64,000 bases of DNA, from the IMG/VR virus record IMGVR_UViG_3300028584_001240. One strand, written 5' to 3'. Positions 1 to 62,600 of the stretch are shown piece by piece. The DNA is from a virus (taxonomy: Duplodnaviria > Heunggongvirae > Uroviricota > Caudoviricetes). Position 1 is the stretch's first letter. Each line of letters begins with the position of its first letter. The position numbers were made by a program, and so were the translations under genes. Under the pieces are notes generated by a model. It saw nothing but the letters and a program-made list of their open reading frames with translations, made no database searches and was not told where the DNA came from.

Positions 1-484
1 CATTTTTTCTCAAAATAATTTCGTTAATAATCTCATGATCACTGGTTTGCATATTCATCAAAACAGCACATTGTTGAATAACAGTATCAATTCTTGCAAT
101 AACATCTTCCTTTGAAACCTTACCCTTGTAAGAGCTGGTGGCAACCCCTGAATATTTTTGAATCGCTTCTGCGAAACGACCAACATAACCAGTCAAAGTA
201 ATGAATCCCATATGAATTTTTTCGATTTGATATGAACGCTTTTCACTAAAAGCATTAGCAATGATTGTATTTAAGATGTCAAAATCATCTGATAGATCAA
301 GATGAATAGACACGGCAACCAGTAAGGTGTCAATGGTTTCTTCAAGCATTTCTGAGCGGTCGTTAAGCACAATGGCTTCACCCAGTTCGCCCTGCTCTTC
401 TGTCAGTTTAGTATTTCGTTGAAACAACGTCTTTTTATCAAAAATCATTGAGTTTTTAACTAGCTTTTGTTGTAGATCAATCAT
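1..484 (-). CDS. MazG-like all-alpha NTP pyrophosphohydrolase (3' end beyond window edge)
   Basis: Open frame from ATG 484 to position 1; absent from the ORF track because there is no stop in the window. My translation is MIDLQQKLV..LTEEQGELGEAIVL..EMLEETIDTLLVAV. It shows the EExxE..ExxD helical acidic pattern of MazG-type enzymes. GAGG lies 7 nt upstream. Confidence 0.55.
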   Translation of the reverse strand, partial: MIDLQQKLVKNSMIFDKKTLFQRNTKLTEEQGELGEAIVLNDRSEMLEETIDTLLVAVSIHLDLSDDFDILNTIIANAFSEKRSYQIEKIHMGFITLTGYVGRFAEAIQKYSGVATSSYKGKVSKEDVIARIDTVIQQCAVLMNMQTSDHEIINEIILRKN

Positions 485-575
485 TATAATTCCTCTAAGT
501 TTGTCAATAATACTATATAAAAGCAGTATAGCAGACACCTATTTTTTTTTCAATTGTTTCCTTTGTCTAATTATC

Positions 576-866
576 TTAATGTAGACAAACAACACCTTCA
601 ATATGGCAATCACAGGTGCAAATTTCAATTTCTTTGCCATCAACAACCATTTTGTATTCAAAATAAAAGACAAGTGGTGGCATTTTCTTTAAAAATTGAA
701 AACGTCCTCTTTTCTGAGGTTGGTAAGATTTCTGCACACTAATAATAGGAACATCGTCATTGGCTTTATAACGCTTTTTATACGATTGTTGAAGTTTACC
801 TTCATCCAGTGTTCTATCCGGCTTTAAATACTGGTCGTAACAAAGCCTACAACATGCTGCTACCAT
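576..866 (-). CDS. Small Cys/His-rich protein, tandem paralogue 1 of 4 (unknown function)
   Basis: 96 aa. N-terminal MVAACCRLCY, C-terminal ..ICTCDCHIEGVVCLH. GGAG lies upstream of the ATG. Shares the CC..CxCxCH..xH-COOH pattern with the next three genes. Confidence 0.75.
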   Translation of the reverse strand: MVAACCRLCYDQYLKPDRTLDEGKLQQSYKKRYKANDDVPIISVQKSYQPQKRGRFQFLKKMPPLVFYFEYKMVVDGKEIEICTCDCHIEGVVCLH

Positions 867-878
867 AATATTCTCCTA

Positions 879-1121
879 TTAATGCATACAATTAATGCCT
901 TCGACATGACAAGGACATGTGCAAAGGGATTGTTCTTTTTTACCATTGATAATATAAGTTCTTTCCAGTAACGGGAGATTGTCCCGAGTAAATGGATTCG
1001 TTTCTTGTCTAACTTCAATAACAGAACCTTTACCAAAAGCAGACTCAACAAATTGCTGACTAATCTCGCCATCGGCTTTAATATATTTTTTATAACAGTG
1101 GTCACAGCATGGCATTACCAT
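879..1121 (-). CDS. Small Cys/His-rich protein, tandem paralogue 2 of 4
   Basis: 80 aa. MVMPCCDHCY.. and ..LCTCPCHVEGINCMH. GGAG lies 9 nt upstream. Confidence 0.8.
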   Translation of the reverse strand: MVMPCCDHCYKKYIKADGEISQQFVESAFGKGSVIEVRQETNPFTRDNLPLLERTYIINGKKEQSLCTCPCHVEGINCMH

Positions 1122-1143
1122 AATTTATTACTCCTAATTCTAT

Positions 1144-1395
1144 TTAATGCATAACACATAAGTTTGGGTCGTTCAGATGACAATCACAATCACATAACTT
1201 CGTTTCTTTACCATCATGAAGAACATACAAAACTTCCTGATCGGGAAGTTGTCGTCTGATTGAGCTAAATGGATGGGGTTCTTTTCGATATACAGTGGTT
1301 GCTTCCGAGCCAAAGTTCTTGGTTAGAAAAGACTTATTAACACTTTTATCCATTTCAATGTATCTGACTTCACTATATTGACAACATGCAAACAT
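1144..1395 (-). CDS. Small Cys/His-rich protein, tandem paralogue 3 of 4
   Basis: The track ORF runs to 1449, but the internal ATG at 1395 (MFACCQYSE..) aligns with the paralogue N-termini and has GGAG at 1403-1406. Ends ..LCDCDCHLNDPNLCVMH. Confidence 0.75.
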   Translation of the reverse strand: MFACCQYSEVRYIEMDKSVNKSFLTKNFGSEATTVYRKEPHPFSSIRRQLPDQEVLYVLHDGKETKLCDCDCHLNDPNLCVMH

Positions 1396-1409
1396 GATAA
1401 TTCTCCAAT

Positions 1410-1664
1410 TTAATGCAAAACGTACAGTCCCATACCTTGAACATGGCATTCACAGGTACACAGTTTAATTTCTTCTTGCCCTTTAATCACATAGGTCACT
1501 TTAACATCTTTTAGTTTTCTTTCTGGTGTATTGTAGGGATTAGCTTCAATCCTGTGTTCAAAAGTGGCATTATCACCAAAATTTTCAACAAGAAACTCTT
1601 TTTTAATGCCACGATCTCCCATGATGTATGGGACATGTGCGTGTTTACAGCAAGCTTCACTCAT
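1410..1664 (-). CDS. Small Cys/His-rich protein, tandem paralogue 4 of 4
   Basis: 84 aa. MSEACCKHAH.. and ..LCTCECHVQGMGLYVLH. AAGGTG SD. Starts 3 nt after the stop of the upstream oxygenase gene. Confidence 0.8.
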   Translation of the reverse strand: MSEACCKHAHVPYIMGDRGIKKEFLVENFGDNATFEHRIEANPYNTPERKLKDVKVTYVIKGQEEIKLCTCECHVQGMGLYVLH

Positions 1665-1666
1665 AA

Positions 1667-2044
1667 TTATTTCACCTTATCTTTTAATAAAAATCCAAAA
1701 CTTAATACATACCTTGAACCACCTACAACTTTTGTCACTGAGTGTTTTGAGATGTCGGGTCTAAAAAACTTAATTCTAGGCCAATTAATGATACTGTTAT
1801 CAGCCACGAATTCACCACCAGAACGCGATTTTTTCAAAATAATATTTAAACGGTAATGTCTAAACCCTTCATCCACTTTGTCAACATGCTCAGGGATTTG
1901 AGATCCTTCTGGAAATTTAAGTAAATAGAGATCAAAAGGAATCGGCCACATAGATTCAAGCAAAGAAATCTTACTGTAACCAGAAGACTGCCGACCTTGT
2001 TTCCATGTAAACCTATCCGATAACTTCATTTTTAAAATCGCCAT
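1667..2044 (-). CDS. 2OG-Fe(II) oxygenase superfamily-like protein
   Basis: 125 aa. HxD (IPEHVDK), a distal His (SKHSV) and an RxS-type motif (GSRYVLSFG) are in the order and spacing typical of the double-stranded beta-helix 2OG oxygenases. Confidence 0.6.
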   Translation of the reverse strand: MAILKMKLSDRFTWKQGRQSSGYSKISLLESMWPIPFDLYLLKFPEGSQIPEHVDKVDEGFRHYRLNIILKKSRSGGEFVADNSIINWPRIKFFRPDISKHSVTKVVGGSRYVLSFGFLLKDKVK

Positions 2045-2121
2045 AGTAAGAATCCATTTAAAAGTTAGGTCATATTATACATCAAAACAATACTCACTGT
2101 CAATTTAACAATTAATTAAAT

Positions 2122-2148
2122 AAAAAACCCGCACTAGGCGGGCTTTTT
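2122..2148. terminator. Rho-independent terminator after tyrS (bidirectional shape)
   Basis: aaaaaaCCCGCactagGCGGGcttttt. Stem 2128-2132/2138-2142, flanked by an A-run and a T-run. The tyrS stop codon lies in the loop. Confidence 0.85.
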
Positions 2149-3393
2149 AATGAGTCGAAACTCTCGTTTACCACGTTGAAAGACAGCGAATTTACCAAAC
2201 TTGAAATCCGTAATTTCAAGAGCGTTCATATCATCCTCGCTGACTACCAACTTGTTACCGTTTACTTGAACCGCACCACTATGGATAAACTCTCGGCCTT
2301 GTCGTTTAGACTTAGCCAAACCAGTAGCGACCATCAAGTCAAGCACATTCAATGTTTCAGGAACAACAGCGACCATACCGTTCTTTTCAAGGTTGACAAA
2401 ATCATCTTCTTGCAAGCTATCAAAGTTGTTATCAAACAAAGCTTTGATGTTACGCAATACCGAATCAAGTGCTGCTTGACCATGAACAATAGCAGTTAAT
2501 TCCTCTGCCAAAAGCTGTTGAGCCATCGGTTTAGTGCGTTCTTTATCAGCTTCAAGGATAGCGTCAATTTCTTCAATAGACTTAAAGGACAGCATTTTGA
2601 AGAACTTCGGAATATCCGCATCGGCTACTTTCAACCAAAACTGGAAGAAATCAAAAGGGCTGGTCATTTCTGAAGATAACCAAACCGCACCGCTTTCACT
2701 TTTACCAAACTTCGTGCCATCCGCTTTGGTCAGCAAGGGAATGGTCAACCCAGTGGCTACGACATCATTACCTTCTTTACGATGGATAAGGTCAATACCA
2801 GCAGTGATGTTACCCCACTGATCGCTACCACCCAATTGAAGACGGCAATTTTTCTCTTTCATCAAGTGATGGAAGTCCATTGACTGCAGGAGCTGGTATG
2901 AGAACTCAGTAAAAGAAATACCTTGATCATCACGATCCAAGCGGCTACGTACCGAATCTTTACTCATCATAGCATTCACAGAGAAATGCTTACCCACATC
3001 ACGAAGGAAATCAATAACTGAAAGGTTAACAGTCCAATCATGGTTATCAACAAGTTCTACATCACCCAGAATATGTTTGATTTGACCAGCAATACCTGCT
3101 TTGAAACGATTAACGGTTTCCGCGTCATTCAAAGTACGTTCTTGTGCTTTAAAGCTAGGGTCACCAATCATGCCGGTAGCACCACCAATCAATGGGAACA
3201 CAGTATGGCCCGCTTTCTTAAAGCGAAGCATAGTAATCAATGGCAAAAGACTACCCACATGCAAAGACTCTGCTGTTGGGTCAAACCCGCAGTATAGGGA
3301 CAAGCCATTATCCATAAGGTCTGAAATTTTGCTTTCGTCTGTCATCTGAGAAACGAGGCCACGTTGTTTGAGTTCTTGAATAAATGCGTTCAT
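2134..3393 (-). CDS. tyrS: Tyrosyl-tRNA synthetase
   Basis: Class I aaRS. HIGH-type motif (ESLHVGSL), KMSKS-type KFGKSESG, GGATGMIGDPS, and a C-terminal S4-like domain. Start moved from the track's GTG at 3408 to ATG 3393, which has GGAG 9 nt upstream. Confidence 0.95.
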   Translation of the reverse strand: MNAFIQELKQRGLVSQMTDESKISDLMDNGLSLYCGFDPTAESLHVGSLLPLITMLRFKKAGHTVFPLIGGATGMIGDPSFKAQERTLNDAETVNRFKAGIAGQIKHILGDVELVDNHDWTVNLSVIDFLRDVGKHFSVNAMMSKDSVRSRLDRDDQGISFTEFSYQLLQSMDFHHLMKEKNCRLQLGGSDQWGNITAGIDLIHRKEGNDVVATGLTIPLLTKADGTKFGKSESGAVWLSSEMTSPFDFFQFWLKVADADIPKFFKMLSFKSIEEIDAILEADKERTKPMAQQLLAEELTAIVHGQAALDSVLRNIKALFDNNFDSLQEDDFVNLEKNGMVAVVPETLNVLDLMVATGLAKSKRQGREFIHSGAVQVNGNKLVVSEDDMNALEITDFKFGKFAVFQRGKREFRLIKKPA

Positions 3394-3581
3394 AATATTT
3401 TTCTCCACGAAAATTTAATTGTGTTTGTGTATAGCTGATTTTTTAGTTAAATAGATAATGCCTCTAAAAGAAGCATAGAGCGGAGAAGTTCAATATCGAA
3501 CGGTGAAAGACTTTTGAAAGTGAAATGTTTTTGAAGCGTTCATGATGTAGTTCCTTTGATTGCGTTTCGTTTAATATGGCT

Positions 3582-3610
3582 ATTCTATCAAAAAAACAAA
3601 AAGAAAGCAA
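3582..3610 (-). promoter_or_regulatory. Putative sigma70-type promoter of tyrS (long ~190-nt leader)
   Basis: On the minus strand: TTGCTT, 17 nt, then TAGAAT with TG at the extended -10 position (tTGaTAGAAT). Confidence 0.45.
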
Positions 3611-3621
3611 GAAAATATTGC

Positions 3622-4215
3622 TTAATTATGTGATGGTTTCCATTGTTTCACTGGTTTTACTATGTCGGATTTAAAAATATCGTTACTACCTATTGTATAA
3701 TTGCTCATAATATCAAGCTTGAACAAATGACTATTATTTTTCAAAGTCTCGGAAGCAATTACATTGTAGACGGTCTTTTGATTTACAAATTCATTCTGGC
3801 TGATTTTATTCTTTTCGATGTTCTTTAATGTATCATTAGAAAGATAACTGCCAATTTCTTTCATGGATGAATGGAACTCATCAACGGTCTTGTTTTTACG
3901 ATGAGATAACATAGATTCTATCTGGTTGTCTGAAATCGCCAGATTGCTTGTATCAAGGGTTGGAAGGTCATTTTTCCACTCTGTTTCTATTTGTTTAATC
4001 TTTGGATAGAGATCAATAAAATCACGTCTTAAAACGACCACCTGTAAATCATTGTAATAGTTTTGAAAATAATTTTTAATATGATCACTTTTCGAATGTT
4101 GCATCAATTCATTGATAGTAAAAACTTGTTTCAATACGGCCAAATCATCCAAACCTTTCTGGTTAAGTGCGTTTAATTCTTTATCTTCTATGACATCAAG
4201 CATAACAACTACCAT
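3622..4215 (-). CDS. Hypothetical protein
   Basis: Long ORF with no motif I recognise. Start is uncertain (ATG 4215 or 4203). The track's 4251 start lies upstream of a likely extended -10 (TGtTAAACT) and inside the terminator tail. Confidence 0.55.
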   Translation of the reverse strand: MVVVMLDVIEDKELNALNQKGLDDLAVLKQVFTINELMQHSKSDHIKNYFQNYYNDLQVVVLRRDFIDLYPKIKQIETEWKNDLPTLDTSNLAISDNQIESMLSHRKNKTVDEFHSSMKEIGSYLSNDTLKNIEKNKISQNEFVNQKTVYNVIASETLKNNSHLFKLDIMSNYTIGSNDIFKSDIVKPVKQWKPSHN

Positions 4216-4250
4216 TTGTTTATTAATACAGTTTAACACAAAAATACACA

Positions 4251-4276
4251 AAAAAAAAGAGACATCGAAGTCTCTT
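4251..4276 (-). terminator. Rho-independent terminator after the Nudix gene
   Basis: Minus strand: aaGAGACttcgatGTCTCtttttttttt. Confidence 0.8.
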
Positions 4277-4298
4277 AACTTTTTAAACAGTCTTAGAA

Positions 4299-4694
4299 TT
4301 ATTGAGTAAGTGCTAATTCTACTATTTTGTAAAGGTTATCTACGCCACATTTTTCCAACATATCGATATCCACATTAAAAATATCAACCACTTCTTTTTC
4401 TACAGTTTTTGCCTGATAAATTAAGTCATCAAACATACTGAATACAAAGACTTTAAACACATCGCTTTCAATTGCACCCAAACCTGACCAGTGGTTGGCC
4501 GTTGTATCAACACCGGTTTCTTCTTTAAATTCACGAATCATGGCTTGAAGTGGTGTCTCATCCATTTCAATTTTTCCACCGGGGCCATTTAACAAACCAC
4601 GTTGCCATTCTGGGGTTAATTTGCGTATGAGCAATATTTTACGTTTGTCAGCACTGAAAGCTACGGCGAGAACATATTCTTTTTTATCTGTCAT
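4299..4694 (-). CDS. Nudix hydrolase
   Basis: Nudix box GX5EX7REUXEEXGU is readable as GGKIEMDETPLQAMIREFKEETGV. Confidence 0.88.
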   Translation of the reverse strand: MTDKKEYVLAVAFSADKRKILLIRKLTPEWQRGLLNGPGGKIEMDETPLQAMIREFKEETGVDTTANHWSGLGAIESDVFKVFVFSMFDDLIYQAKTVEKEVVDIFNVDIDMLEKCGVDNLYKIVELALTQ

Positions 4695-4808
4695 AATAAT
4701 ACCCTTTTAGTTAAGTAATCTTTAAGAATACATCAAAAAATAAAAATTGAAAGAGTCGTTAAAAACATTTAAATTTAAATATATTATGATATAATAAGAA
4801 TAACAACT

Positions 4809-5885
4809 ATGTATTTTAATATGTATTTAAAAAGAGAATATATTGACGAAGCTGTCAAAAAAGATTTTTCAGAAAACCATCATGCAGAGTTCGCATGGGC
4901 GTATTACCAGAAAACTAAAGATGTTGAAAGTGTAGAACTCGCTATGGTGACCTTTGAACGTGATGAAAAAACACATAAGAGAGCTATTATCAAACAAAAG
5001 TATCTTTCAGATATTAACCAAAACAAATTGGGCGACAAATTTATTGACATTGGTGGAAATAAACCAAGATTAAGCAGCTCTTATTTAATCAATCCTAATT
5101 ATGACTACAAAGAAAATGAAATTACCAATATAGAATTAAAAACACTCAGCGAAGTTGAATTTAAAGAAATGTTTGGAACACTCAATACCATTAAATTAGA
5201 AGAAGCCAATGGATTGATGCAGAATTTTTGTAATCTAAAAGATCAAGGTGTTATCTATTCAAAAGAAGGTGAAGAATTCAGTTACAAAATTATTGAAAAC
5301 AGTGATATGACATTGGGTTCTTTATTGTTATTAGATGAATTGAGAGTATATAAGGACAATGTTCAAATAGGTTTTTTAAAGACTAAATACACTAATGATT
5401 CGATCATCAAAGAATTATTAGGACAAGATTATCAAGTACAAATCAATGACAATATGAGTGCTGATGAAAAGAAGGCATATTTAAAAGAAAAAGAAGTTGT
5501 ATTTACTGAAACTAATTATGACATCATCTTTAACATAAAAAAGAATGAATTAAAAGACCAGCTTAAGAAAATTCAAAGAGAATTGAAAATGTTTAATGAT
5601 GTTGCCACGATAGATTATTCAAAAATTAGTGATGAATTTAAGGGCAAAGGATTAGGCACACAAATATATTTAAAGATGGCTGAACATTACGATAATAAAA
5701 ATATTGTATTCAGAAGCTCTTCATTACAGTCTCCAAGTGCAAAAGGGTTATGGGAAAAGATGAAAAAAGAATATCCATCACAAATAGAAGAAATAAATAT
5801 AGCCGATCAAAACTATTACAAATTAAAAGGCAGCGGTCAGAAAGATAAAGTAACCCATAAAAGAAGAAACAAAAAGACTCTATGA
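4809..5885 (+). CDS. Hypothetical protein with possible C-terminal GNAT-like motif
   Basis: 358 aa. The C-terminal FKGKGLGTQIYLKMAEH resembles acetyltransferase motif A (Q/RxxGxG/A). The rest is unassigned. An extended -10 TGaTATAAT lies at 4787-4795. Confidence 0.6.
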   Translation: MYFNMYLKREYIDEAVKKDFSENHHAEFAWAYYQKTKDVESVELAMVTFERDEKTHKRAIIKQKYLSDINQNKLGDKFIDIGGNKPRLSSSYLINPNYDYKENEITNIELKTLSEVEFKEMFGTLNTIKLEEANGLMQNFCNLKDQGVIYSKEGEEFSYKIIENSDMTLGSLLLLDELRVYKDNVQIGFLKTKYTNDSIIKELLGQDYQVQINDNMSADEKKAYLKEKEVVFTETNYDIIFNIKKNELKDQLKKIQRELKMFNDVATIDYSKISDEFKGKGLGTQIYLKMAEHYDNKNIVFRSSSLQSPSAKGLWEKMKKEYPSQIEEINIADQNYYKLKGSGQKDKVTHKRRNKKTL

Positions 5886-5899
5886 AGAGTCTTTTTTTT
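5871..5899. terminator. Bidirectional terminator between convergent genes
   Basis: aaaaAGACTCtatgaaGAGTCTttttttt. Both stop codons lie in or next to the hairpin. Confidence 0.8.
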
Positions 5900-7802
5900 A
5901 ACGATTAAATAATTTTGTTGCAATGTTTTTTAATAAGCTTTGTTTTTTAGAATCAGTATTAGCATCAATTTTTTCCTTTAACTCTTCTTTTAACGCCGGA
6001 TAACTTTTTAAATCATGTTTAATAATCTCTAATTGTAATATTTTAAACTCATCGTCATCATAAAGTTGATTATCATTTTTTAAGTGAGCGGCACTGTGAG
6101 AGCCGTCTTTATATAAGGTAATGCCAATAAGAGAATGATTATCAGCAGGCTCTTTGTTGAGATCATAAATGAAATATTGCTGACAGTCTTCTTTATAACT
6201 TTTAAAATGAACCTCATCTCGAACGATACACCAAGAAGTGCTACCAACCGCTGAGCTTTGTTGAAAGTTCTCTATTTTTAAAATAATCAGATTGTTATCA
6301 TTTTTAATCACTTCTGCATTAACAGACTTTGCTTTGTTAATAATGGCTTCTGTGTTAAATCCACTATTAATAGAATAAAGTTGTTTCAATGCTTTATTAA
6401 AGTCTTTACTGTTTTTGAAGGATGCTAGTTTTTTACCCAAGCTATCTTGTAATTCACTAGGTGGTATGTTTAAATCGTAGAGAAGTTCTAACGTCTTAAA
6501 AGCTTCTTCATCATAGAGATGTTGATACTTTTTACTGGATATACTGAGTCCGTATTGCTCTATTTTATGCTTACGAACAAAGGCATTCATTGAATCGTCT
6601 AACATTTCAAATAATGACTCATCTATTTCTTCAAGTAGATTATAGTCTTTTGATTTTAATATGGCTTCGTGTTCAAGATAGGTATCAGCAGCAATAAAAG
6701 CACGCTCACAATCATTGAAGTCTTCTTTTAACTTATTTACAAACATTTTAGCAATAGTAGGACTTTTTTTCAATCTATTAAACAATTCTTTTTGTATCAG
6801 CTTTTCAATTAGTGTATCTTTCAATTCTTTTGAATGAAGATCAACCCATTCACCTGTATTTTTTTTGATAGCTATACTGTTGTCATCAAAAATATTAATT
6901 TGACTGATATGTGAAGTTTTGTCATCAATTTTAATATCAACACGAATACGATTAACCGAATTCAAATCAGTATCAGCACGTTCCAATAACAGCAATTCAA
7001 CATTACTAGCGTTTTTAATAAAATTAACAAACTTATGGGCATAAGAATAAGTGAAATCAGCATTGTTTTTCATCAATTTATCAACAATGTCTTGTCGTAT
7101 TTTTTTGTATTCATTAATATGTTCGAAAATGTTGCTCTGCTTTATTAGATTATTCAAAAGGTTTTCTTGATTATAAAATTTTTCAAAAAATGAAAGGTTT
7201 CTCTTTAAATTGAAACAACTTTCTATGTAGGTTGATTTTTCTAAATCAGTTGGATTTCTTGATTTGAATATGTTTAAATCATAATCAACTTCTCTTAAAC
7301 TAATATCTATTTTCTCGATTTGACTTAAAATAGGTGTAATAACATCATCTGCTTTAATAGCGGCGAGTAGATCTTTAACTTTAAGATTTTGAGATGAAAG
7401 ATCGACACCTTCTAATTTAGCAATAGCTTCCCAACCTTTAAAATTAATCAATAAGTCATCATGGATAGACGAATGTGTTATTCTATGCAATGTTCTCATA
7501 ATTTCTCGAACAGAATATCTATATAAACTAGAACTAACCTGTTCAATATCATTAAAATCAGTATCAGTATGTAATTTTTTAAAGCCAATCATTTGTTGAG
7601 AGACTATATAATCACTAACACTCTGTTGATTATACAACCTATCAAGTGTAAAAAAATAATTATCAAATCGAGCATTATACTTATGCTCATTTTTACTATT
7701 GTATGTGCTATGAAATTGATTTCTTAATGTAAAATCTTCATAACTATCAAACTGATTGTCGTGGGCCGAACAAACACTTGTTATATCATCTCTTATTAAC
7801 AT
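5898..7802 (-). CDS. Large hypothetical protein, paralogue of 24585..26729 (shared C-terminal ~190-aa domain)
   Basis: C-terminal KHKIEQYGLSISSKKYQHLYD..LIILKIENFQQSSAVGSTSWCIVRD..QQYFIYDLN..SLIGITL aligns by eye with the other gene. Start set to ATG 7802. The track's TTG at 7892 overlaps the upstream gene and a promoter-like site. Confidence 0.75.
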   Translation of the reverse strand: MLIRDDITSVCSAHDNQFDSYEDFTLRNQFHSTYNSKNEHKYNARFDNYFFTLDRLYNQQSVSDYIVSQQMIGFKKLHTDTDFNDIEQVSSSLYRYSVREIMRTLHRITHSSIHDDLLINFKGWEAIAKLEGVDLSSQNLKVKDLLAAIKADDVITPILSQIEKIDISLREVDYDLNIFKSRNPTDLEKSTYIESCFNLKRNLSFFEKFYNQENLLNNLIKQSNIFEHINEYKKIRQDIVDKLMKNNADFTYSYAHKFVNFIKNASNVELLLLERADTDLNSVNRIRVDIKIDDKTSHISQINIFDDNSIAIKKNTGEWVDLHSKELKDTLIEKLIQKELFNRLKKSPTIAKMFVNKLKEDFNDCERAFIAADTYLEHEAILKSKDYNLLEEIDESLFEMLDDSMNAFVRKHKIEQYGLSISSKKYQHLYDEEAFKTLELLYDLNIPPSELQDSLGKKLASFKNSKDFNKALKQLYSINSGFNTEAIINKAKSVNAEVIKNDNNLIILKIENFQQSSAVGSTSWCIVRDEVHFKSYKEDCQQYFIYDLNKEPADNHSLIGITLYKDGSHSAAHLKNDNQLYDDDEFKILQLEIIKHDLKSYPALKEELKEKIDANTDSKKQSLLKNIATKLFNR

Positions 7803-7824
7803 AAATACATCGTGGTTTTTTATT

Positions 7825-7853
7825 ATTATAACATATAATATAAAAAGTCTTAA
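7825..7853 (-). promoter_or_regulatory. Putative promoter for 5898..7802
   Basis: Minus strand: TTAAGA, 17 nt, then TATAAT with TGt (aTGtTATAAT). Confidence 0.4.
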
Positions 7854-7875
7854 TCTATTTTTTACACTGAGTCGA

Positions 7876-8574
7876 TTACATATTTTCTCCAATATTATAC
7901 ATTTTCAACAACAGAAGTTCTCTTTTGGTTAATTTATTAAACTTTTTATCAAACAAAGACAAAGTGTGAGAGCTTAAATACTTTTCCAGCTCAGTTTTAA
8001 AACTCCTACTCAGGATAGAGCTGACATAGCGTTCACCTGTTAACGTTTTGGCATACAGCATCTGGTTATGCTGAAAGCAAACCGTTTCATCTTTTTTCGA
8101 AATAACAAAAGTGCTTTGATACTTGACAAAATGAGAACCAAACCGCAAAGCATTCAAATCTGAAAATTTGAACGATGAAGAATTCAAAACCTCAAAACCT
8201 TTAAAATAATAAGAAGCTCTGTCGAGATATATAAGGTTTTTCAACATCAAGCCTTCAGCACTTGGCGTGATGCCAGATAGCGTAATCTTATTAAGTGTTC
8301 GTCTGTTAATAAATCCAATTGGGATAAAAACGCCTAATTGTCCTCTGTTGTCATTGTAGTAACCAATAAAATATCTACGATCATTAAGTCCAATCAAATA
8401 AATATGACAATTATCTTCATCAAAATAGTATTTTAATTGAGGAAAAGCATATTTATTAACATGATTACCAATATCAAATCCACGAGTAAGATGCAGAAAA
8501 TCGGTGTCAGGTAATTCCGACATATCAGTTAAAAGAAGATCGTGAATCAGCGTTACATCAGGTTGTGTCATCAT
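7876..8574 (-). CDS. Tail-motif paralogue family member (motif plus 5-aa extension)
   Basis: 232 aa. Ends ..LTKRELLLLKMYNIGENM; compare ..NKRELDLIRMSYI and ..TKRERDIIEMMYI. GGAGG SD. Confidence 0.75.
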   Translation of the reverse strand: MMTQPDVTLIHDLLLTDMSELPDTDFLHLTRGFDIGNHVNKYAFPQLKYYFDEDNCHIYLIGLNDRRYFIGYYNDNRGQLGVFIPIGFINRRTLNKITLSGITPSAEGLMLKNLIYLDRASYYFKGFEVLNSSSFKFSDLNALRFGSHFVKYQSTFVISKKDETVCFQHNQMLYAKTLTGERYVSSILSRSFKTELEKYLSSHTLSLFDKKFNKLTKRELLLLKMYNIGENM

Positions 8575-8585
8575 GAACCTCCAGA

Positions 8586-8613
8586 TAAAAAAATATCTCC
8601 GAAGAGATATTTT
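8586..8613 (-). terminator. Rho-independent terminator after the S49 peptidase gene
   Basis: Plus strand reads aaaaaaaATATCTCcgaaGAGATAT; on the minus strand the hairpin is followed by a T-run. Confidence 0.8.
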
Positions 8614-8627
8614 AATTTGAAAACGTA

Positions 8628-9524
8628 TTAACGAATGCTTTCATTCGGGTGAGACATTGAAAAGAGTTTATCAATAGCCTTACCAATGGATGTTTCAAGA
8701 ACAGCGTCTAGACCGAACAAGCCAGCCAAACCACCACTTTTAGCCTTAACATCAGTATTCACCTGATACAGTTGGGCACCGTCTTTAAAAGCCTTCAAAA
8801 TAGCCGAGCGACTATCACCAATTTCATCAACAAGATGTTCCTTCAACACATCTTGTGCCATGTAAAAGTCACCTTCCATCAGCTTTTCAGGATTAATCAT
8901 AGGGCGATATTGCAATACATGGTTTTTGAACGCAGTGTGAATTTCAACCAGTTTTTGTTTGAAAATAGTTTCTTCGGCTTCACTTGGAAGTTTAGTAGGA
9001 ACCACAGAACGCTTATTGGTGCCTGCTGTGTAAACTCGAACATCAACACCGATTTTAGTCAGCACTTCTTCAAAGATAGGCACTTGCGAAACAACACCGA
9101 TAGAGCCAACAAAAGCAAACGGTTGAGCCACAATGCGATCACAGACCGAAGCCATCATATAACCACCACTGGCCGCGACTTCATCAACAAAACCAGTAAC
9201 CTTCAGACCGTGAGCACGAAGACGGTTGATTTGCTGAGCAGCATTCGCATAGGCGGTTACACTGCCACCGGGGCTTTTAATAATCATGTAGACAGCATCA
9301 CCACTTTTGGAGTTAAGGATAGTCATGTCCACATCACGTTCCAGTTTTTCAAACGCATTGCCTTTATCTTCGGCGTTAAAACGAAGAACAAAGATCTTAT
9401 TCAAATAAACGACATCTTTCGTTTTTGCTTTCAATTCACGTCGAACTTCACGACTCTCAATCTTTTTAATGAGTTCACGGTTCATATCTTTGATTTCTGT
9501 TTTAAAACGAATTTCTTTAGACAT
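8628..9524 (-). CDS. S49-family serine peptidase (SohB/SppA-like, ClpP/crotonase fold)
   Basis: IKSPGGSVTAY..VDEVAASGGYMMASVCDRIVAQPFAFVGSIGVV is the typical S49 core. AGGAG SD. Confidence 0.8.
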   Translation of the reverse strand: MSKEIRFKTEIKDMNRELIKKIESREVRRELKAKTKDVVYLNKIFVLRFNAEDKGNAFEKLERDVDMTILNSKSGDAVYMIIKSPGGSVTAYANAAQQINRLRAHGLKVTGFVDEVAASGGYMMASVCDRIVAQPFAFVGSIGVVSQVPIFEEVLTKIGVDVRVYTAGTNKRSVVPTKLPSEAEETIFKQKLVEIHTAFKNHVLQYRPMINPEKLMEGDFYMAQDVLKEHLVDEIGDSRSAILKAFKDGAQLYQVNTDVKAKSGGLAGLFGLDAVLETSIGKAIDKLFSMSHPNESIR

Positions 9525-16771: not shown

Positions 16772-18052
<1,281 letters not shown>

Positions 18053-18090: not shown

Positions 18091-18855
18091 TCAATAGCGT
18101 TCGATAGCCAAAACTGGATAGTAACTCATAATCTCTTCGTTACTTAATGCATTTACTTGAGTATGCGTTAAATTATATAGACGAATAATTGTACCTAAAA
18201 TTTGTGTCTGATGGAGGTCATTAAATTGAGTGGCAAAAGTATGCATCTGCATTTTAACTAAACTATCCTGTTCACTTTTCTTCTGAAACCAAAAATCCAT
18301 ACCAAATGACATGAAGTGAAATTCATCATTAAGATAAAATTGATTATTCTCAAATATAAATTTAGCTATTTTATAAACCTTAAAAGTCTCAAAAGGTGTT
18401 GTAACTTCGGCATGAATAGTTTTATCCATCATGAGCGTTTTCCATGAACCAAATTTCAATATTCTTTTTGCAAAAGGTAAAACATTTATGTTTGAGATGA
18501 TTTTTAGTTGCTCGCTGTATTCACTTGCAGCCTTCATAAATAATGAAAAAGAATCTGTGCTTTGTTCACTGCAGTGTTTAATAAATTTATTATAAAGTGG
18601 CAAATATTTTTTGTTATCAATATCTAAGGTAATGTTATTTACTACATAATCACCTTTTTTAACATTATTATTGATAGTAAATCGAAAAATAGGCTTAGCT
18701 TTACTCGTATTGACATCTAAGCAACAAATTGTCCTACCACCAGTATACTGACCCAACCCAGTGCGGGTATGGAAAATAACAGAGCCTTTCATATTTTTTT
18801 CAAAGAAAGGTCTTAACTCTGAGATCATTGCTTGACATAATTCATTATCGTTCAT
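18091..18855 (-). CDS. Tail-motif paralogue family member (sub-cluster A, 1 of 3)
   Basis: 254 aa. Ends ..IMSYYPVLAIERY (Ile replaces the Met). Shares KFIFENNQFYLNDEF with the next two genes. Confidence 0.8.
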   Translation of the reverse strand: MNDNELCQAMISELRPFFEKNMKGSVIFHTRTGLGQYTGGRTICCLDVNTSKAKPIFRFTINNNVKKGDYVVNNITLDIDNKKYLPLYNKFIKHCSEQSTDSFSLFMKAASEYSEQLKIISNINVLPFAKRILKFGSWKTLMMDKTIHAEVTTPFETFKVYKIAKFIFENNQFYLNDEFHFMSFGMDFWFQKKSEQDSLVKMQMHTFATQFNDLHQTQILGTIIRLYNLTHTQVNALSNEEIMSYYPVLAIERY

Positions 18856-18873
18856 TTTTTGTGTTTCCTATCA

Positions 18874-19632
18874 TTAATAACGTTCCATTGACAATACTGG
18901 GTAATAAGACTGGAACTGTTTATCAGTCCAAAGACCAAACTCAGTAAAAGGCACATCATACAGTTCATTAATTTTTGAAGTAATAATTTCATAGTGATCT
19001 TCATAAAATTTATGAGCAAATTCTTTAACTTCAACCTTCATGACATCTACGTCTTCTGTTTTTTGAGCAAACGTATAGTGTTGACCTAGTGAAGTAAAAC
19101 TAAACTTATCATGTAAATAAAATTTATTATTTTCAAAAATAAATTTAGGTGTCTTATGAATGTTGATAACTTCAAAAGGAGTTGTCATAATGGCATGGAC
19201 AGCAAGATCCACTCTAATATAGTCACCATCTGCAATCAACTTTCTTTCCTCAAATGGCAATACATCAATAGCAGTTATTAATTTTAAATGATCAGTCTGT
19301 TTAAGTGTTTCATTCATAAACAAATTAAATGAATTAGAACTGTATTGGCTACACACAGCTATGAATTTATTCAATATGTTTAAATGTTTTTCATCGTGGA
19401 CTTTTATTTCGATAGATTTAAACTTTTGATCATAGATCCTTCTGTCTTTCATAATAATAAAAGATAATAAAAGTTGTCCGGTAGAGGACTGCATATGTAA
19501 AATATCCAAAGAAATACCATTAGGCTTAGTATTATTTAATGAAGCCTTAAACATAACAGGATAATTAAGATGTCGAGCCGCAAACAAGCTTAAAACTGAT
19601 TTCATACTCTCAACCAGTTGTTCTGTTGTCAT
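18874..19632 (-). CDS. Tail-motif paralogue family member (sub-cluster A, 2 of 3)
   Basis: 252 aa. Ends ..FQSYYPVLSMERY. Contains PKFIFENNKFYLHDKF. Confidence 0.8.
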   Translation of the reverse strand: MTTEQLVESMKSVLSLFAARHLNYPVMFKASLNNTKPNGISLDILHMQSSTGQLLLSFIIMKDRRIYDQKFKSIEIKVHDEKHLNILNKFIAVCSQYSSNSFNLFMNETLKQTDHLKLITAIDVLPFEERKLIADGDYIRVDLAVHAIMTTPFEVINIHKTPKFIFENNKFYLHDKFSFTSLGQHYTFAQKTEDVDVMKVEVKEFAHKFYEDHYEIITSKINELYDVPFTEFGLWTDKQFQSYYPVLSMERY

Positions 19633-20385
19633 TTAACAAACCTCCATCGCTAATACAGGGTAATAAGACATCAATAATTCTGGCGACCAATTAGAAACTT
19701 CATCAACAGGTGTATTATAGAGTTCACTCAATGCAGTAGTTATATAGAGAAAACATTTATTATAGAATAAATCGGCAAACTTTGAAACGTAATCATTAAT
19801 ATATTTTTCATTATTTTCTGTTCTTTTCATGAACTTAAAATTACCAACTTCCGAAGAAAATACAAATTCAGGATTAATATAGAATTTATTTTTTTCAAAG
19901 ATAAATCTAGGTCTTTGTTCTATTTCAATAGTTTCAAAGGCTGTTTCAAGGTTTGCATAAATTTGTGGATCGATAACACCATGCAATTTTGATGAATACT
20001 GAATAGTGCTGGAATCTTGTAGTATATTGACAGCTTTGATAAATTTCAAATGATTGCTTTGTCTAATCATAGCGTCCACAAATAATGAAAATGAATTAAA
20101 CCCATCAACACAATATTCCTTTACAAACAAATTATAGATGCCTAAATATTTTTGGTCACCAATCACTATATTAATTGAATGTCTTTTAGCCTCATTTGTC
20201 GATTCAAGAATAAAACTGAAAATAATGCTTCCTGATGCAGTGAGGACACGAACATCAGGAAAAAGATTATGACTGCCAACATTACCATTAGTCCGTTTCT
20301 GGAAAAAGACAGGTTCGAGCACATTATCTTTAAAAAATGGCTTTATTTTGGCTATAATTGAATCACATAAATCATTTATATTCAT
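19633..20385 (-). CDS. Tail-motif paralogue family member (sub-cluster A, 3 of 3)
   Basis: 250 aa. Ends ..LMSYYPVLAMEVC. Contains PRFIFEKNKFYINPEF. Confidence 0.8.
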   Translation of the reverse strand: MNINDLCDSIIAKIKPFFKDNVLEPVFFQKRTNGNVGSHNLFPDVRVLTASGSIIFSFILESTNEAKRHSINIVIGDQKYLGIYNLFVKEYCVDGFNSFSLFVDAMIRQSNHLKFIKAVNILQDSSTIQYSSKLHGVIDPQIYANLETAFETIEIEQRPRFIFEKNKFYINPEFVFSSEVGNFKFMKRTENNEKYINDYVSKFADLFYNKCFLYITTALSELYNTPVDEVSNWSPELLMSYYPVLAMEVC

Positions 20386-38095: not shown

Positions 38096-38149
38096 AACAA
38101 GACCTCAAAAAAATAAACCTTATAGAATTATAAGATTTATGTAATAATG

Positions 38150-38224
38150 TTGAAGAGGAAGGATTTGAACCTCCGACATACCCGCCCAAAATGCAGGCTG
38201 CTCTACCCACTGAGCTACCCTTCA
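38150..38224 (-). tRNA. tRNA with non-canonical anticodon arm; anticodon most simply UUU (Lys); CCA not encoded
   Basis: Manual fold of the minus strand: acceptor TGAAGGG/CTCTTCA (U1-A72, one G-U); D arm GCTC-AGTGGGTA-GAGC; anticodon arm GCCTGC-ATTTTGG-GCGGGT (6 bp, or 5 bp with a 9-nt loop); variable ATGTC; T arm GGAGG-TTCAAAT-CCTTC; discriminator A. Confidence 0.7.
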
Positions 38225-38272
38225 AACTCTTTATAAAACAATAGAGCAACTAGGTTACTCTATTTTTTAAAT

Positions 38273-38349
38273 TGGTCGGAGTGGCAGGATTTGAACCTGC
38301 GGCATCTTGCTCCCAAAGCAAGCGGTCTACCGGGCTGACCTACACTCCG
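38273..38349 (-). tRNA. tRNA-Pro (anticodon UGG), CCA encoded
   Basis: Manual cloverleaf: CGGAGTG-TA-GGTC-AGCCCGGTA-GACC-G-CTTGC-TTTGGGA-GCAAG-ATGCC-GCAGG-TTCAAAT-CCTGC-CACTCCG-A-CCA. All stems are Watson-Crick. C1-G72 and G37 are typical of tRNA-Pro. Confidence 0.9.
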
Positions 38350-43885: not shown

Positions 43886-44614
43886 ATGAATGAGAAATAC
43901 ACAATAGTCCAGAATGATAGTTTAGAATTTGATGAATTGTTCGATGTCAGTCAAATTAATATGAGTTATTATTTTTCAAATTGGGTTAACAATGAGATTA
44001 AAATGACAAAAATTATTAAAAAACTTTATCTGGAAGGTATAAAAGTTGATATGATTAATATGTATGCAAATCCAGACAAGGGAGATCACCGTGAATATTG
44101 TGATGTTGAGAATCGTGATGATAGAATATATTACAATTTTATTAGTCAATTATTAAAACAATCTCATGCTAGAAATGACTTCAATTATTATGAACATTTA
44201 CCATTATCTGATCGAAAAGGTTATATGGATATTTGCTATCTCTTCAATAGGCCAAAAATAGAAATAAGATATCACACTAAAACAATTAGCACTATTTTTA
44301 CATTTACTGAGACTGGTTTGGTTATTGTATACAAAATTAACAATAATGACAGTAATAAAATGATGATAGAAATAAAAATCAATGAGAATAATGAAATATT
44401 ATCAACAATTGTTCACTTTAATGGAAAGATTTATAAAGAACCAGAAAAGATAAAATTAAGTCATAAACAGCTAGATTATCTTATTGCTTTATGTCATTAT
44501 GGCATGATAGAAGAGAAAGATTTTAATGTAGAGCCATATATTGATAAGGTGTTAGCAGAAGATTATAAAGATGTAATTAATTATTTTAAAGTAAAAGAGA
44601 TGACTTACATATGA
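43886..44614 (+). CDS. Tail-motif paralogue family member (sub-cluster E, 1 of 2)
   Basis: 242 aa. Ends ..VINYFKVKEMTYI. Shares SNKMM(I/L).I.IN, (K/Q)QLDYLI and NARNDF/HARSHL blocks with the next gene. Confidence 0.8.
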   Translation: MNEKYTIVQNDSLEFDELFDVSQINMSYYFSNWVNNEIKMTKIIKKLYLEGIKVDMINMYANPDKGDHREYCDVENRDDRIYYNFISQLLKQSHARNDFNYYEHLPLSDRKGYMDICYLFNRPKIEIRYHTKTISTIFTFTETGLVIVYKINNNDSNKMMIEIKINENNEILSTIVHFNGKIYKEPEKIKLSHKQLDYLIALCHYGMIEEKDFNVEPYIDKVLAEDYKDVINYFKVKEMTYI

Positions 44615-48669: not shown

Positions 48670-48673
48670 AATA

Positions 48674-49375: not shown

Positions 49376-49410
49376 AATAAGAGAACCTTTTTTTAATTTA
49401 AGTAAGTGTA

Positions 49411-51489: not shown

Positions 51490-51555
51490 CAATATCACCT
51501 TTAAAATAGATGAATCATTATAGCATTATAATAACAAAAAATCCACACAATCTAT

Positions 51556-61692: not shown

Positions 61693-61713
61693 ATTTAACT
61701 CCCTAAATCGTAT

Positions 61714-62484: not shown

Positions 62485-62600
62485 AACAATCGTCACTCAA
62501 TAATTCTTTGTATATTATACTATTTTACTTAATAAATCAATTGAAATGTTGATTTTCTTTTTTAATTTGTTATCCTATGCCTAAGAAAAGGATACTGACC

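What the first reader, a model, noticed from the sequence alone, without database searches (positions are those of the whole stretch)
576..2044. Four tandem ~80-aa Cys/His-rich paralogues transcribed behind a 2OG-Fe(II) oxygenase-like gene
Four consecutive genes, each with its own GGAG/AAGGTG SD and only 13-22 nt apart, encode proteins that share four features:
- an N-terminal x-A/P-C-C motif;
- a central F..FG..NP(F/Y) block;
- a C-terminal L-C-(T/D)-C-x-C-H motif;
- a His as the very last residue (..VVCLH, ..INCMH, ..LCVMH, ..LYVLH).

That gives at least 6-8 potential metal ligands in 80 residues. I do not recognise the family. The genes immediately follow a 2OG-Fe(II) oxygenase-like gene (3-nt gap) and precede a MazG-like gene.

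Two readings are possible. They could be a small metal (Zn/Fe/Cu)-binding protein family amplified for dosage or diversification. Or they could be multiple precursor-like substrates modified by the oxygenase, a RiPP-like arrangement of several similar peptides next to a tailoring enzyme. The second reading is speculative.
Basis: partly seen in the sequence, partly recalled or inferred. Interest (0 to 1): 0.55.

Follow-up and report, generated by a model that had tools for sequence, protein, structure and literature searches.

The report
Split metal-knot mini-proteins of large phages
Four neighbouring genes encode diverged copies of an undescribed small phage protein whose two chain ends appear to join into one site of five cysteines and two histidines, probably for metal; the oxygenase gene next door is a neighbour only in this lineage, and the function is unknown.

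Summary
Five genes (a 125-aa oxygenase-like gene, then genes of 84, 83, 80 and 96 aa) lie on the minus strand at 576-2044. They follow a TyrRS terminator and a 12/12 sigma-70 consensus promoter.

The four small proteins are real paralogues under purifying selection (dN/dS 0.08-0.26). They share seven invariant residues: CC near the N-terminus, CxCxCH, and a final His.

No Pfam, NCBIfam or PADLOC family, solved structure or paper matches them; PHROG hits are only marginal (E >= 9e-4, unannotated families). An exhaustive profile search found 167 cluster representatives, all short proteins; every genomic context examined was phage-like.

The family has two circularly permuted forms. In 47 sequences the motif is contiguous: CxCxCH-x7-H-x3-CC. 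In 121 sequences, including these four, the chain is broken exactly after the His. In 112 of those 121, the predicted mature N-terminus lies three residues before CC, the same spacing as the contiguous linker. So the two termini very likely meet to form one Cys5His2 site. That it binds metal is inferred.

The oxygenase accompanies the small genes only in this window's own clade, so the RiPP reading is not supported.

About a fifth of lineages place the gene within 1.5 kb of tRNA genes. Function remains unknown; I favour an early-expressed, metal-stapled binding module that has diversified by tandem duplication.

The parts
2121..2149 (-). Intrinsic terminator closing the upstream TyrRS gene (2134-3408). 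It marks the start of a separate transcription unit.
   Evidence: 12-bp stem with 5 GC pairs, followed by a T-run.
2074..2103 (-). Sigma-70 consensus promoter: TTGACA, 18 nt, TATAAT (12 of 12 matches), about 30 nt upstream of the oxygenase-like gene.
   Evidence: It is the only 12/12 site in 1-4400. No terminator-like site lies between it and position 576, apart from one weak hairpin inside P2.
1667..2044 (-). 125-aa minimal 2OG/Fe(II)-oxygenase-like protein, the first gene of the operon.
   Evidence: PF13640 E=1.4e-3, below cut-off. phrog_13746 E=1.7e-38. H53, D55, H101, R111 and S115 are invariant in 28 homologues. It has 369 homologues, including free-standing bacterial ones.
1410..1664 (-). 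Paralogue P1 (84 aa). MSEACC ... LCTCECH-x9-H. Split (type A) form with a 2-residue insert before the terminal His.
   Evidence: Orthologues are 74-98% identical. dN/dS 0.09-0.16. AF2 pLDDT 81.5.
1144..1395 (-). Paralogue P2 (83 aa). MFACC ... LCDCDCH-x9-H. The initiator Met is predicted to be retained.
   Evidence: dN/dS 0.12 against L009.
879..1121 (-). Paralogue P3 (80 aa). MVMPCC ... LCTCPCH-x7-H. Canonical spacing.
   Evidence: dN/dS 0.08-0.10. The exact sequence occurs in four other samples with the same gene order.
576..866 (-). Paralogue P4 (96 aa). MVAACC ... ICTCDCH-x7-H. The most divergent copy, with a longer and basic middle. It is missing from one related lineage (L009).
   Evidence: dN/dS 0.26. 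pI 8.7, against 6.0-6.5 for P1-P3.
525..553 (-). Promoter-like site (10 of 12 matches, with TG extension) ahead of the next gene, the MazG/PRA-PH-like gene (ATG at 484, running off the window). It is the probable end of the five-gene unit.

Best explanation
The four genes are diverged tandem paralogues of an undescribed family of small proteins found in large phages.

Shown:
- They are real, selected genes. They are co-transcribed with a small oxygenase-like gene from a consensus sigma-70 promoter, so host RNA polymerase can read them, probably early in infection.
- The family core is one 19-residue motif, C-x-C-x-C-H-x7-H-x3-C-C, followed by xxxYxxY(I/L)xxDG.
- The motif occurs in two circularly permuted forms. 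In the window's form the chain begins three residues before CC and ends exactly at the second His.

Inferred (strong): the N- and C-termini pack against each other and rebuild the same seven-residue Cys5His2 site. The break behaves like a nick in a loop. The variable middle of 33-105 residues is an alpha-plus-beta unit in P1 (not modelled for P2-P4) and is looped out.

Inferred (moderate): the site binds metal. Seven ligands suggest two zinc ions sharing one bridging thiolate, acting as a structural staple.

Inferred (weak): the proteins act as stoichiometric binders of a host or phage macromolecule, and the four copies carry diversified specificity surfaces. In about a fifth of lineages the gene sits among tRNA genes or tRNA-repair genes, and here it sits beside TyrRS. 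The target may therefore lie in tRNA or translation biology.

The oxygenase is a lineage-specific operon neighbour, not a family-wide partner.
For: Real paralogues: invariant C5, C6, C69, C71, C73, H74 and terminal H. BLASTP E 1e-10 to 1e-21. dN/dS 0.08-0.26, with dN 3-10 times that of TyrRS. The operon order is conserved in relatives.

Transcription unit: terminator followed by a 12/12 promoter.

Permutation: 121 split and 47 contiguous sequences. The H-x3-CC linker is exactly 3 residues in 47 of 47.

N-terminal rule:
- The prefix before CC is 4 residues when residue 2 is small, so the initiator Met is expected to be removed by methionine aminopeptidase (65:1).
- The prefix is 3 residues when residue 2 is large (47:5). 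Fisher p=5e-26.
- The predicted mature N-terminus is therefore 3 residues before CC in 112 of 121.
- The rule survives grouping at 45% identity (36 and 26 groups against 8 exceptions). Seven groups contain both forms, so the switch has happened repeatedly.
- No split member carries a C-terminal extension.

Folded proteins: AF2 pLDDT 81.5 for P1 and 88.2 for a contiguous member, with the core at 90-97.

Context:
- tRNA genes lie within 1.5 kb in 11 of 53 lineage representatives, against 0 of 16 chance-hit control loci.
- tRNA density is about 0.2 per kb within 5 kb of the family gene.
- A Thg1 gene lies 0.5 kb away in one group of loci.
- An RNA ligase gene and a tRNA array flank the gene in Aeromonas phage GomatiRiver_11.

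Tandem copies also occur in other large-phage contigs: L039 (three copies), L059, L019 and L120.
Against: No metal has been measured. The metal's identity and stoichiometry are guesses.

I could not inspect model coordinates, so the contact between the termini rests on the permutation argument. In the P1 model the termini have low confidence (pLDDT 64 at the N-terminal block, 44 for the last four residues).

The family is neutral to mildly acidic (median pI about 6), which does not favour general nucleic-acid binding.

The tRNA association holds for only about 20% of lineages. It could simply reflect the accessory-gene islands in which phage tRNAs sit, and my control loci come from smaller contigs.

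No conserved protein partner exists, so context gives no direct functional handle.

Early expression is inferred from a promoter consensus only.
Confidence: 0.45

Rival explanations
1. RiPP-like system: the four small proteins are precursor peptides that the adjacent 2OG/Fe(II) oxygenase hydroxylates or cross-links.
For: The genes sit in one operon with a 2-nt gap between the oxygenase and P1. Several similar small genes beside one enzyme resembles multi-precursor RiPP clusters. The catalytic H-x-D...H...R residues of the oxygenase are intact.
Against: The adjacency exists only in the window's own clade. No oxygenase was found in any locus of the other lineages searched for it (L001-L003, L007-L008, L013-L059), and no protein neighbour recurs in more than 3 of 87 lineages. 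In Viktualia the two genes are 115 kb apart. The oxygenase family is widespread without these genes, including in bacteria. The small proteins are predicted to fold (pLDDT 81-88). Selection acts on both ends, with no leader/core pattern. No protease, transporter or recognition-element gene is nearby.
Confidence: 0.04
2. Metal handling: the proteins store, buffer or deliver a metal (Zn, Fe, Cu or Ni) during infection, for example to the neighbouring Fe(II) enzyme, and copy number raises capacity.
For: Seven invariant thiolate and imidazole residues. CxC and CC pairs are typical of thiophilic clusters. Met is frequent beside the ligands (..V-M-H, x-M-x-CC). In this clade the genes are co-transcribed with an Fe(II) enzyme.
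Against: There are only seven conserved ligands in about 80 residues. Conserved aromatic residues and confident secondary structure are unlike metallothioneins. The paralogues are only 25-42% identical and each has its own conserved orthologues, which points to diversification rather than dosage. Most genomes carry a single copy.
Confidence: 0.13
3. Head-to-tail assembly: the C-terminal five-ligand half-site of one molecule pairs with the N-terminal CC of another. This would build homo- or hetero-oligomers, possibly among P1-P4.
For: The motif is split exactly at the chain ends. Tandem arrays recur (window, L039, L059). In the monomer model of P1 the termini are the least confident parts.
Against: Most phages carry one copy, so hetero-assembly cannot be general. 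The contiguous forms show that the site can form within one chain. No multimer modelling could be run.
Confidence: 0.1
4. A nucleic-acid-targeting (tRNA or DNA) module: the domain recognises tRNA or DNA. The free-standing copies would modulate tRNA repair, tRNA processing or homing nucleases.
For: tRNA genes are enriched nearby. TyrRS is adjacent here. Thg1 and RNA ligase genes are neighbours elsewhere. The contiguous core is fused to an HNH-like region that matches the N-terminal third of PHROG 24030, annotated 'RNA ligase' (E=2e-32), and to a resolvase-like nuclease (phrog_190, E=1e-6).
Against: Median pI is about 6 and the net charge is negative. Fusions are rare. The tRNA neighbourhood holds in only about 20% of lineages and has a trivial alternative explanation: tRNA genes tend to sit in accessory-gene islands.
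Confidence: 0.12
5. A redox protein: the residues hold an Fe-S cluster or a rubredoxin-like iron, and the proteins act as electron carriers, for example for the oxygenase.
For: A Cys-rich site of this size could bind iron. Adjacent CC pairs bind Fe in desulforedoxin (own knowledge).
Against: There is no CxxC or CxxxCxxC spacing. 2OG oxygenases need no protein reductant (established enzymology). The family occurs without the oxygenase.
Confidence: 0.06

Closest known systems
Small structural zinc domains with multinuclear Cys/His clusters (Zn2Cys6 of Gal4, CXC/pre-SET Zn3Cys9, cross-brace RING/PHD); from own knowledge
   Same: Very dense ligand spacing, including C-x-C and adjacent ligands. Seven ligands fit two metals with one shared thiolate. 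A small domain that probably owes its fold to metal.
   Different: The ligand pattern C-x-C-x-C-H-x7-H-x3-C-C matches none of them. No sequence hit and no fold hit. Here the site is assembled from the two chain termini.
Zinc ribbon and rubredoxin-like knuckle folds
   Same: Short, Cys-rich and common in phage small proteins. Circular permutation is documented among zinc-ribbon-like folds (own knowledge).
Metallothioneins and copper-thiolate proteins
   Same: CxC and CC motifs. Possible binding of thiophilic metals.
   Different: Cys is 6-9% of residues rather than 20-30%. Conserved Tyr and Phe, with predicted helices and strands.
Multi-precursor RiPP gene clusters with a tailoring oxygenase
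   Same: Several similar short genes directly downstream of an oxidising enzyme, in one operon.
   Different: The enzyme and the small genes do not co-occur outside one clade. The small proteins look folded, with conserved residues at both ends. No processing or export genes are present.
Prolyl-4-hydroxylase-like 2OG/Fe(II) oxygenases (PF13640), for the upstream gene only
   Same: H-x-D...H triad with a distal Arg and Ser invariant. Weak PF13640 and PADLOC '2OG' matches.
   Different: Only 125 aa. Below Pfam's gathering score. No PDB sequence relative. Substrate unknown.

Membership tests
Zinc ribbon | Two CxxC (or CxxH) knuckles on beta-hairpins that bind one Zn | tested here: not met
Metallothionein | Cys at least about 20% of residues, few aromatic residues, no regular secondary structure without metal | tested here: not met
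   5-7 Cys in 80-96 residues. Tyr13 is nearly invariant. Helices and strands are predicted at pLDDT of about 90.
RiPP precursor plus tailoring enzyme cluster | The precursor genes and the modifying enzyme co-occur across genomes | tested here: not met
   tblastn of the oxygenase against the loci fetched up to that point (L001-L059) hit only the seven loci of the window's clade then in hand; three more of that clade were fetched later. No shared protein neighbour in more than 3 of 87 lineages.
RiPP precursor plus tailoring enzyme cluster | A leader/core architecture with a cleavage site, plus an associated protease or exporter | tested here: not met
   Conservation lies at both termini, with no GG-type site. 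Neighbouring genes are TyrRS, NUDIX and MazG-like.
RiPP precursor plus tailoring enzyme cluster | A post-translational modification is actually present | not testable with these tools
   Needs mass spectrometry of the co-expressed proteins.
2OG/Fe(II) oxygenase superfamily (upstream gene 1667-2044) | H-x-D/E...H iron triad plus a basic residue that binds 2-oxoglutarate | tested here: met
   H53, D55, H101, R111 and S115 are invariant in 28 homologues.
2OG/Fe(II) oxygenase superfamily (upstream gene 1667-2044) | Score above the curated Pfam threshold (PF13640) | tested here: not met
   19.9 bits against a gathering score of 27. One close homologue carries a precomputed PF13640 hit, and NCBI names some homologues '2OG-Fe(II) oxygenase'.
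2OG/Fe(II) oxygenase superfamily (upstream gene 1667-2044) | Double-stranded beta-helix fold | not tested
CDGSH / mitoNEET [2Fe-2S] domain | C-x-C-x2-(S/T)-x3-P-x-C-D-G-(S/A/T)-H | tested here: not met
   The motif is absent. The family consensus is CxCxCHxxGxxxxH. No Pfam hit.
Any metal-binding protein (generic) | Bound metal at defined stoichiometry | not testable with these tools
   Needs ICP-MS or native mass spectrometry. Only the conservation of seven ligand-type residues is shown.

The most novel reading that the evidence does not exclude
This would be a new metal-knot fold whose single Cys5His2 site can be built either from a contiguous 19-residue loop or from the two free ends of the chain. 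Selection would hold the mature N-terminus and the C-terminal His in exact register, compensating for initiator-Met removal. It would serve large phages as a tRNA- or translation-linked host-takeover or repair factor. In tandem arrays like this one, half-sites might even pair between paralogues.
Probability: 0.15. Interest if true: 0.75.

Novelty: new variant of a known kind. Interest (0 to 1): 0.58.

Why it matters
If confirmed, this adds an unclassified metal-binding mini-domain to the catalogue. It represents at least 167 sequence clusters, is absent from Pfam and the PDB, and occurs in jumbo Pseudomonas phages, T4-like Aeromonas and Acinetobacter phages and many uncultured large phages.

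It would also be an unusually clean natural example of circular permutation. The break point is conserved to the residue, and the length of the N-terminus co-varies with the rule for methionine removal. That is a purely sequence-based prediction which mass spectrometry and a single structure can test.

For phage biology, it flags a fast-evolving gene family, probably expressed early, that repeatedly sits among tRNA genes, tRNA synthetases and tRNA-repair genes. Cultured phages (PA1C, Psa21, 201phi2-1, RSP15) are available for knock-outs.

It also shows that the gene order 'enzyme followed by several small Cys-rich genes' is not, on its own, evidence for a RiPP cluster.

Tried and rejected
Family and structure searches:
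- Pfam, NCBIfam and PADLOC scans of the four proteins and of contiguous-form members found nothing below E=0.01; PHROGs gave only marginal hits (E 9e-4 to 0.08) to unannotated families.
- PDB sequence searches with a 45-column core profile (E<=10) and with the oxygenase found nothing.
Model coordinates are not exposed, so I could not measure the distance between the termini.

Locus searches:
- The search for related loci with alignment A2 found pattern matches, but none passed the tblastn confirmation. I used degenerate DNA patterns instead.
- Many pattern hits in genomes and metagenomes were low-complexity Cys/His/Tyr repeats and were filtered out. In bacterial and archaeal genome contigs only three MAG contigs (L060, L062, L071) held true members.

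Literature: searches for CxCxCH, C5H2 with zinc and phage, cysteine-rich jumbo-phage small proteins, and small ORFs in tRNA clusters found nothing relevant.

Context analyses:
- Neighbour clustering found no conserved partner.
- A core-similarity test could not resolve whether the split and contiguous forms are each monophyletic. Nearest neighbours are only partly sorted by type.

Ideas considered and dropped:
- Intein-like or self-processing ends: no HN/C junction.
- Backbone cyclisation: no cyclase gene and no evidence.
- A general nucleic-acid-binding role: weakened by the acidic pI.

I also tried to identify the window's own contig through exact protein look-ups. This returned only short relatives.
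Full report
**1. What is in the sequence**

On the minus strand the TyrRS gene (2134-3408) ends in a strong intrinsic terminator (2149-2121). This is followed by a perfect sigma-70 consensus promoter: TTGACA, 18 nt, TATAAT, at 2103-2074. Five closely packed genes follow:

| Gene | Coordinates | Length |
|---|---|---|
| oxygenase-like | 2044-1667 | 125 aa |
| P1 | 1664-1410 | 84 aa |
| P2 | 1395-1144 | 83 aa |
| P3 | 1121-879 | 80 aa |
| P4 | 866-576 | 96 aa |

The gaps between them are 2, 14, 22 and 12 nt. Each gene has AAGGTG, GGAG or AGGAG 6-8 nt before its ATG. A second promoter-like site (553-525) precedes a weakly MazG/PRA-PH-like gene, which is cut by the window edge. The five genes therefore look like one transcription unit that host RNA polymerase can read. 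Early expression is an inference from this.

**2. The four proteins are true paralogues and real genes**

- They align with 25-42% identity. The invariant residues are C5, C6, C69, C71, C73, H74 and the C-terminal His.
- The same seven stay invariant when 22 orthologues from metagenomes are added.
- Pairwise BLASTP E-values reach 1e-21.
- C.C.CH occurs only four times in the six-frame translation of the 64-kb window, all of them here.
- Each paralogue has its own orthologues in related contigs, which keep the order NUDIX, x, TyrRS, x, oxygenase, 84, 83, 80, (96).
- Against these orthologues dN/dS is 0.08-0.26. dN is 3-10 times that of TyrRS, so the genes are selected but evolve fast.

**3. No known family**

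- Pfam, NCBIfam and PADLOC give nothing for the four proteins; PHROGs give only marginal hits (E 0.005-0.08) to families of unknown function.
- 0 of 147 family members match any Pfam model at E<=1e-3.
- A core profile finds no PDB sequence even at E<=10.
- BFVD returns only unnamed proteins, probably family members.
- Four literature searches found nothing.

**4. The family and its two topologies**

An exhaustive profile search of 1.84 billion representatives found 167 proteins at E<=1e-3, all between 47 and 205 aa. Reading them shows two arrangements of one motif.

In 47 sequences the motif is contiguous: (L/I)-C-x-C-x-C-H-x2-G-x4-H-x3-C-C-x3-Y-x2-Y-(I/L)-x2-D-G. An example is ICSCECHIEGMTVMHFMPCCQHCDEKYLDKDG.

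In 121 sequences, including the window's four, the chain starts M-x-x-CC or M-x-x-x-CC and ends exactly at the second His. The rest of the protein (33-105 residues) lies between the two halves. This is a circular permutation, and its break point is exact:

- The contiguous linker H-x3-CC is three residues in 47 of 47.
- In the split form the prefix before CC is four residues when residue 2 is small (A, G, S, T, C, P or V), which allows removal of the initiator Met (65:1).
- The prefix is three residues when residue 2 is large (47:5). Fisher p=5e-26.
- The predicted mature N-terminus is therefore three residues before CC in 112 of 121.
- The rule survives collapsing to 62 groups at 45% identity. 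Seven groups contain both forms, so the compensation has arisen repeatedly. P2 (MFACC) against P1, P3 and P4 (MSEACC, MVMPCC, MVAACC) shows it inside this window.
- No split member has anything after the His.

I infer that the alpha-amino end and the C-terminal His sit side by side. The two ends would then rebuild the same Cys5His2 site that the contiguous form makes from one loop.

I could not check this on coordinates, because the tools do not expose them. In the P1 model the termini are the least confident parts.

Core similarity did not resolve whether the permutation happened once or several times.

**5. Where the family lives**

Split members occur as single genes in nucleus-forming jumbo Pseudomonas phages:
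- PA1C (QBX32529.1), with matching tblastn hits in PS119XW, phiHQ and BRkr
- Psa21 (PSA21_412)
- Viktualia (CDS0292)
- an unannotated ORF of 201phi2-1

Contiguous members occur in Ralstonia phage RSP15 (ORF109), T4-like Aeromonas phages and, in a minimal 55-aa form, T4-like Acinetobacter phages.

Degenerate DNA patterns recovered more loci from IMG/VR and from metagenomes. These include other tandem sets: three copies in L039 (a 259-kb contig) and two each in L059, L019 and L120. Among 185,579 species genomes only three MAG contigs held true members. Every context examined is phage-like, so the family appears to belong to phages.

**6. The oxygenase is not a family-wide partner**

The oxygenase-like protein keeps H53-x-D55, H101, R111 and S115 in 28 homologues. 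It is plausibly an active minimal 2OG/Fe(II) enzyme.

tblastn of the oxygenase against the loci fetched up to that point (L001-L059) hit only the seven of the window's own clade; three more loci of that clade, with the same gene order, were fetched later. Clustering of all neighbours within 5 kb found no protein family shared by more than 3 of 87 lineages.

In Viktualia the two genes lie 115 kb apart, and PA1C and Psa21 are not among the 30 phage records with an oxygenase match. The oxygenase has 369 homologues, including free-standing bacterial ones.

A clade-specific modification cannot be excluded without mass spectrometry.

**7. Context clues to function**

The only recurrent neighbours are RNA genes.
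- tRNA genes lie within 1.5 kb in 14 of 35 loci of the first set.
- They lie within 1.5 kb in 6 of 34 independent metagenomic loci of at least 4 kb.
- After collapsing to lineages, the figure is 11 of 53 representatives, against 0 of 16 chance-hit control loci.
- tRNA density is about 0.2 per kb out to 5 kb.

Other tRNA-related neighbours:
- a Thg1-family tRNA-His guanylyltransferase 0.5 kb away in one group of loci (PF04446, E=2e-28)
- an RNA ligase gene and the tRNA array flanking the gene in Aeromonas phage GomatiRiver_11
- TyrRS in this window

Rare fusions join the contiguous core to other domains:
- an HNH-like region that matches the N-terminal third of a PHROG annotated 'RNA ligase' (E=2e-32)
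- a resolvase-like nuclease (E=1e-6)
- a short tail resembling the start of the T4 Gp23 capsid protein (E of about 0.003-0.008)

Caveats apply. The association covers only a fifth of lineages. Phage tRNA genes sit in accessory-gene islands, and my controls come from smaller contigs. The family is also neutral to acidic (median pI about 6), which argues against a generic nucleic-acid binder.

**8. Most likely mechanism**

Shown: a new family of small proteins from large phages; a seven-residue invariant Cys/His set; exact circular permutation; tandem diversification here; co-transcription from a consensus promoter.

Inferred:
- The termini close a single metal site, which I guess to be two zinc ions with one bridging thiolate.
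- That site staples a small scaffold whose variable insert is the functional surface.
- The proteins bind a host or phage macromolecule, possibly within tRNA or translation biology.

Overall confidence is 0.45. It is much higher for the structural part than for the function.

**9. Comparison and novelty**

The family works like other small structural-metal domains, but it fails the defining features of zinc ribbons, metallothioneins, CDGSH domains and RiPP clusters (see the membership table). I rate it a new variant of a known kind. It is a small Cys/His mini-domain with a new ligand pattern, no detectable fold relative and an unusual ends-joined architecture.

**10. Genome setting, seen in passing**

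- The window has 32.5% G+C.
- It encodes three aminoacyl-tRNA synthetases, an NAD-dependent ligase and two tRNAs, and has at least five other local tandem paralogue groups.
- A polymerase-beta-like protein links it distantly to jumbo and 636-735-kb uncultured phages.
- Syntenic copies of this operon lie on contigs of 0.77 and 1.92 Mb, and a close oxygenase homologue on one of 1.84 Mb. I did not investigate this.

Noticed in passing
L009 (JGI 3300034157 Ga0370506_000001, 1,917,244 bp), L193 (ENA ERZ27272093 k141_708015, 773,483 bp), protein P0179 (1,843,594-bp contig): Regions syntenic with window 1-9000 (NUDIX, TyrRS, oxygenase, the small paralogues) lie on metagenome contigs of 0.77 and 1.92 Mb, and a close oxygenase homologue (P0179) on one of 1.84 Mb. 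That is far larger than any described phage genome. The gene content looks phage-like, with few Pfam hits. This could be a very large phage, a cell-associated element or a misassembly.
   Followed up: partly
window 2134-3408, 16772-18043, 46149-47327, 55044-56918, 38149-38349: The window encodes TyrRS, SerRS and a third class-II aminoacyl-tRNA synthetase, an NAD-dependent DNA ligase with a BRCT domain, and tRNA-Lys(UUU) and tRNA-Pro(UGG). This is a translation-gene load typical of huge phages.
   Followed up: partly
window 18091-20385, 48001-50142, 43886-45405, 50929-52122, 60913-62496: At least five further groups of two or three adjacent paralogous genes of about 200-270 aa. Local tandem duplication seems to be a general habit of this genome, not special to the Cys/His genes.
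   Followed up: partly
L021, L112, L136, L170, L072, L146 (contiguous-form members): Some contiguous-form proteins carry a C-terminal tail ending in ...(A/N)EDIVSVQPMT..., which weakly matches the first conserved stretch of T4-type major capsid protein Gp23 (PF07068 positions 9-32, E=0.008; phrog_12830, E=0.003).
   Followed up: partly
L096 651-1229 (-), L097 1103-1651 (+), L145 1438-1830 (+): The contiguous Cys5His2 core is fused N-terminally to two kinds of nuclease-like domain. One is an HNH-like region matching the first third of PHROG 24030 'RNA ligase' (E=2e-32). The other is a Holliday-junction-resolvase-like nuclease (phrog_190, E=1e-6).
   Followed up: partly
L024 9549-10400; also L032, L080: A Thg1-family tRNA-His guanylyltransferase gene (PF04446, E=2e-28) lies about 0.5 kb from the family gene in one group of viral contigs.
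   Followed up: partly
Pseudomonas phage 201phi2-1, EU197055.1 301753-302007 (L016 3495-3758): An unannotated ORF between gp449 and gp448 encodes a full family member (MCQPCC...LCTCMCHTHGIDVIH). It lies 1.4 kb from the only tRNA gene (tRNA-Leu) in the 7.3-kb stretch fetched.
   Followed up: yes
L059 (IMGVR_UViG_3300011202_000010, 341,648 bp), about 78 nt from the family genes at 1159-1717: ARAGORN calls a tRNA labelled tRNA-Pyl (by ARAGORN's convention a CUA, amber-reading anticodon; the anticodon itself was not printed) within a seven-tRNA cluster next to two tandem family genes. This may hint at stop-codon reassignment or suppression in that phage.
   Followed up: no
window 1667-2044: The 125-aa oxygenase-like protein is 52-65% identical to free-standing homologues in bacteria (for example Roseateles and Frateuria, which NCBI names 2OG-Fe(II) oxygenase) and in many jumbo phages. 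Such strong conservation suggests a universal substrate, which is unknown.
   Followed up: partly
window 8628-9524: An S49/ClpP-like protein matches PHROG 53, head maturation protease (E=5e-32). Among the roughly two dozen window ORFs scanned against PHROGs or Pfam it is the only strong virion-related hit.
   Followed up: no
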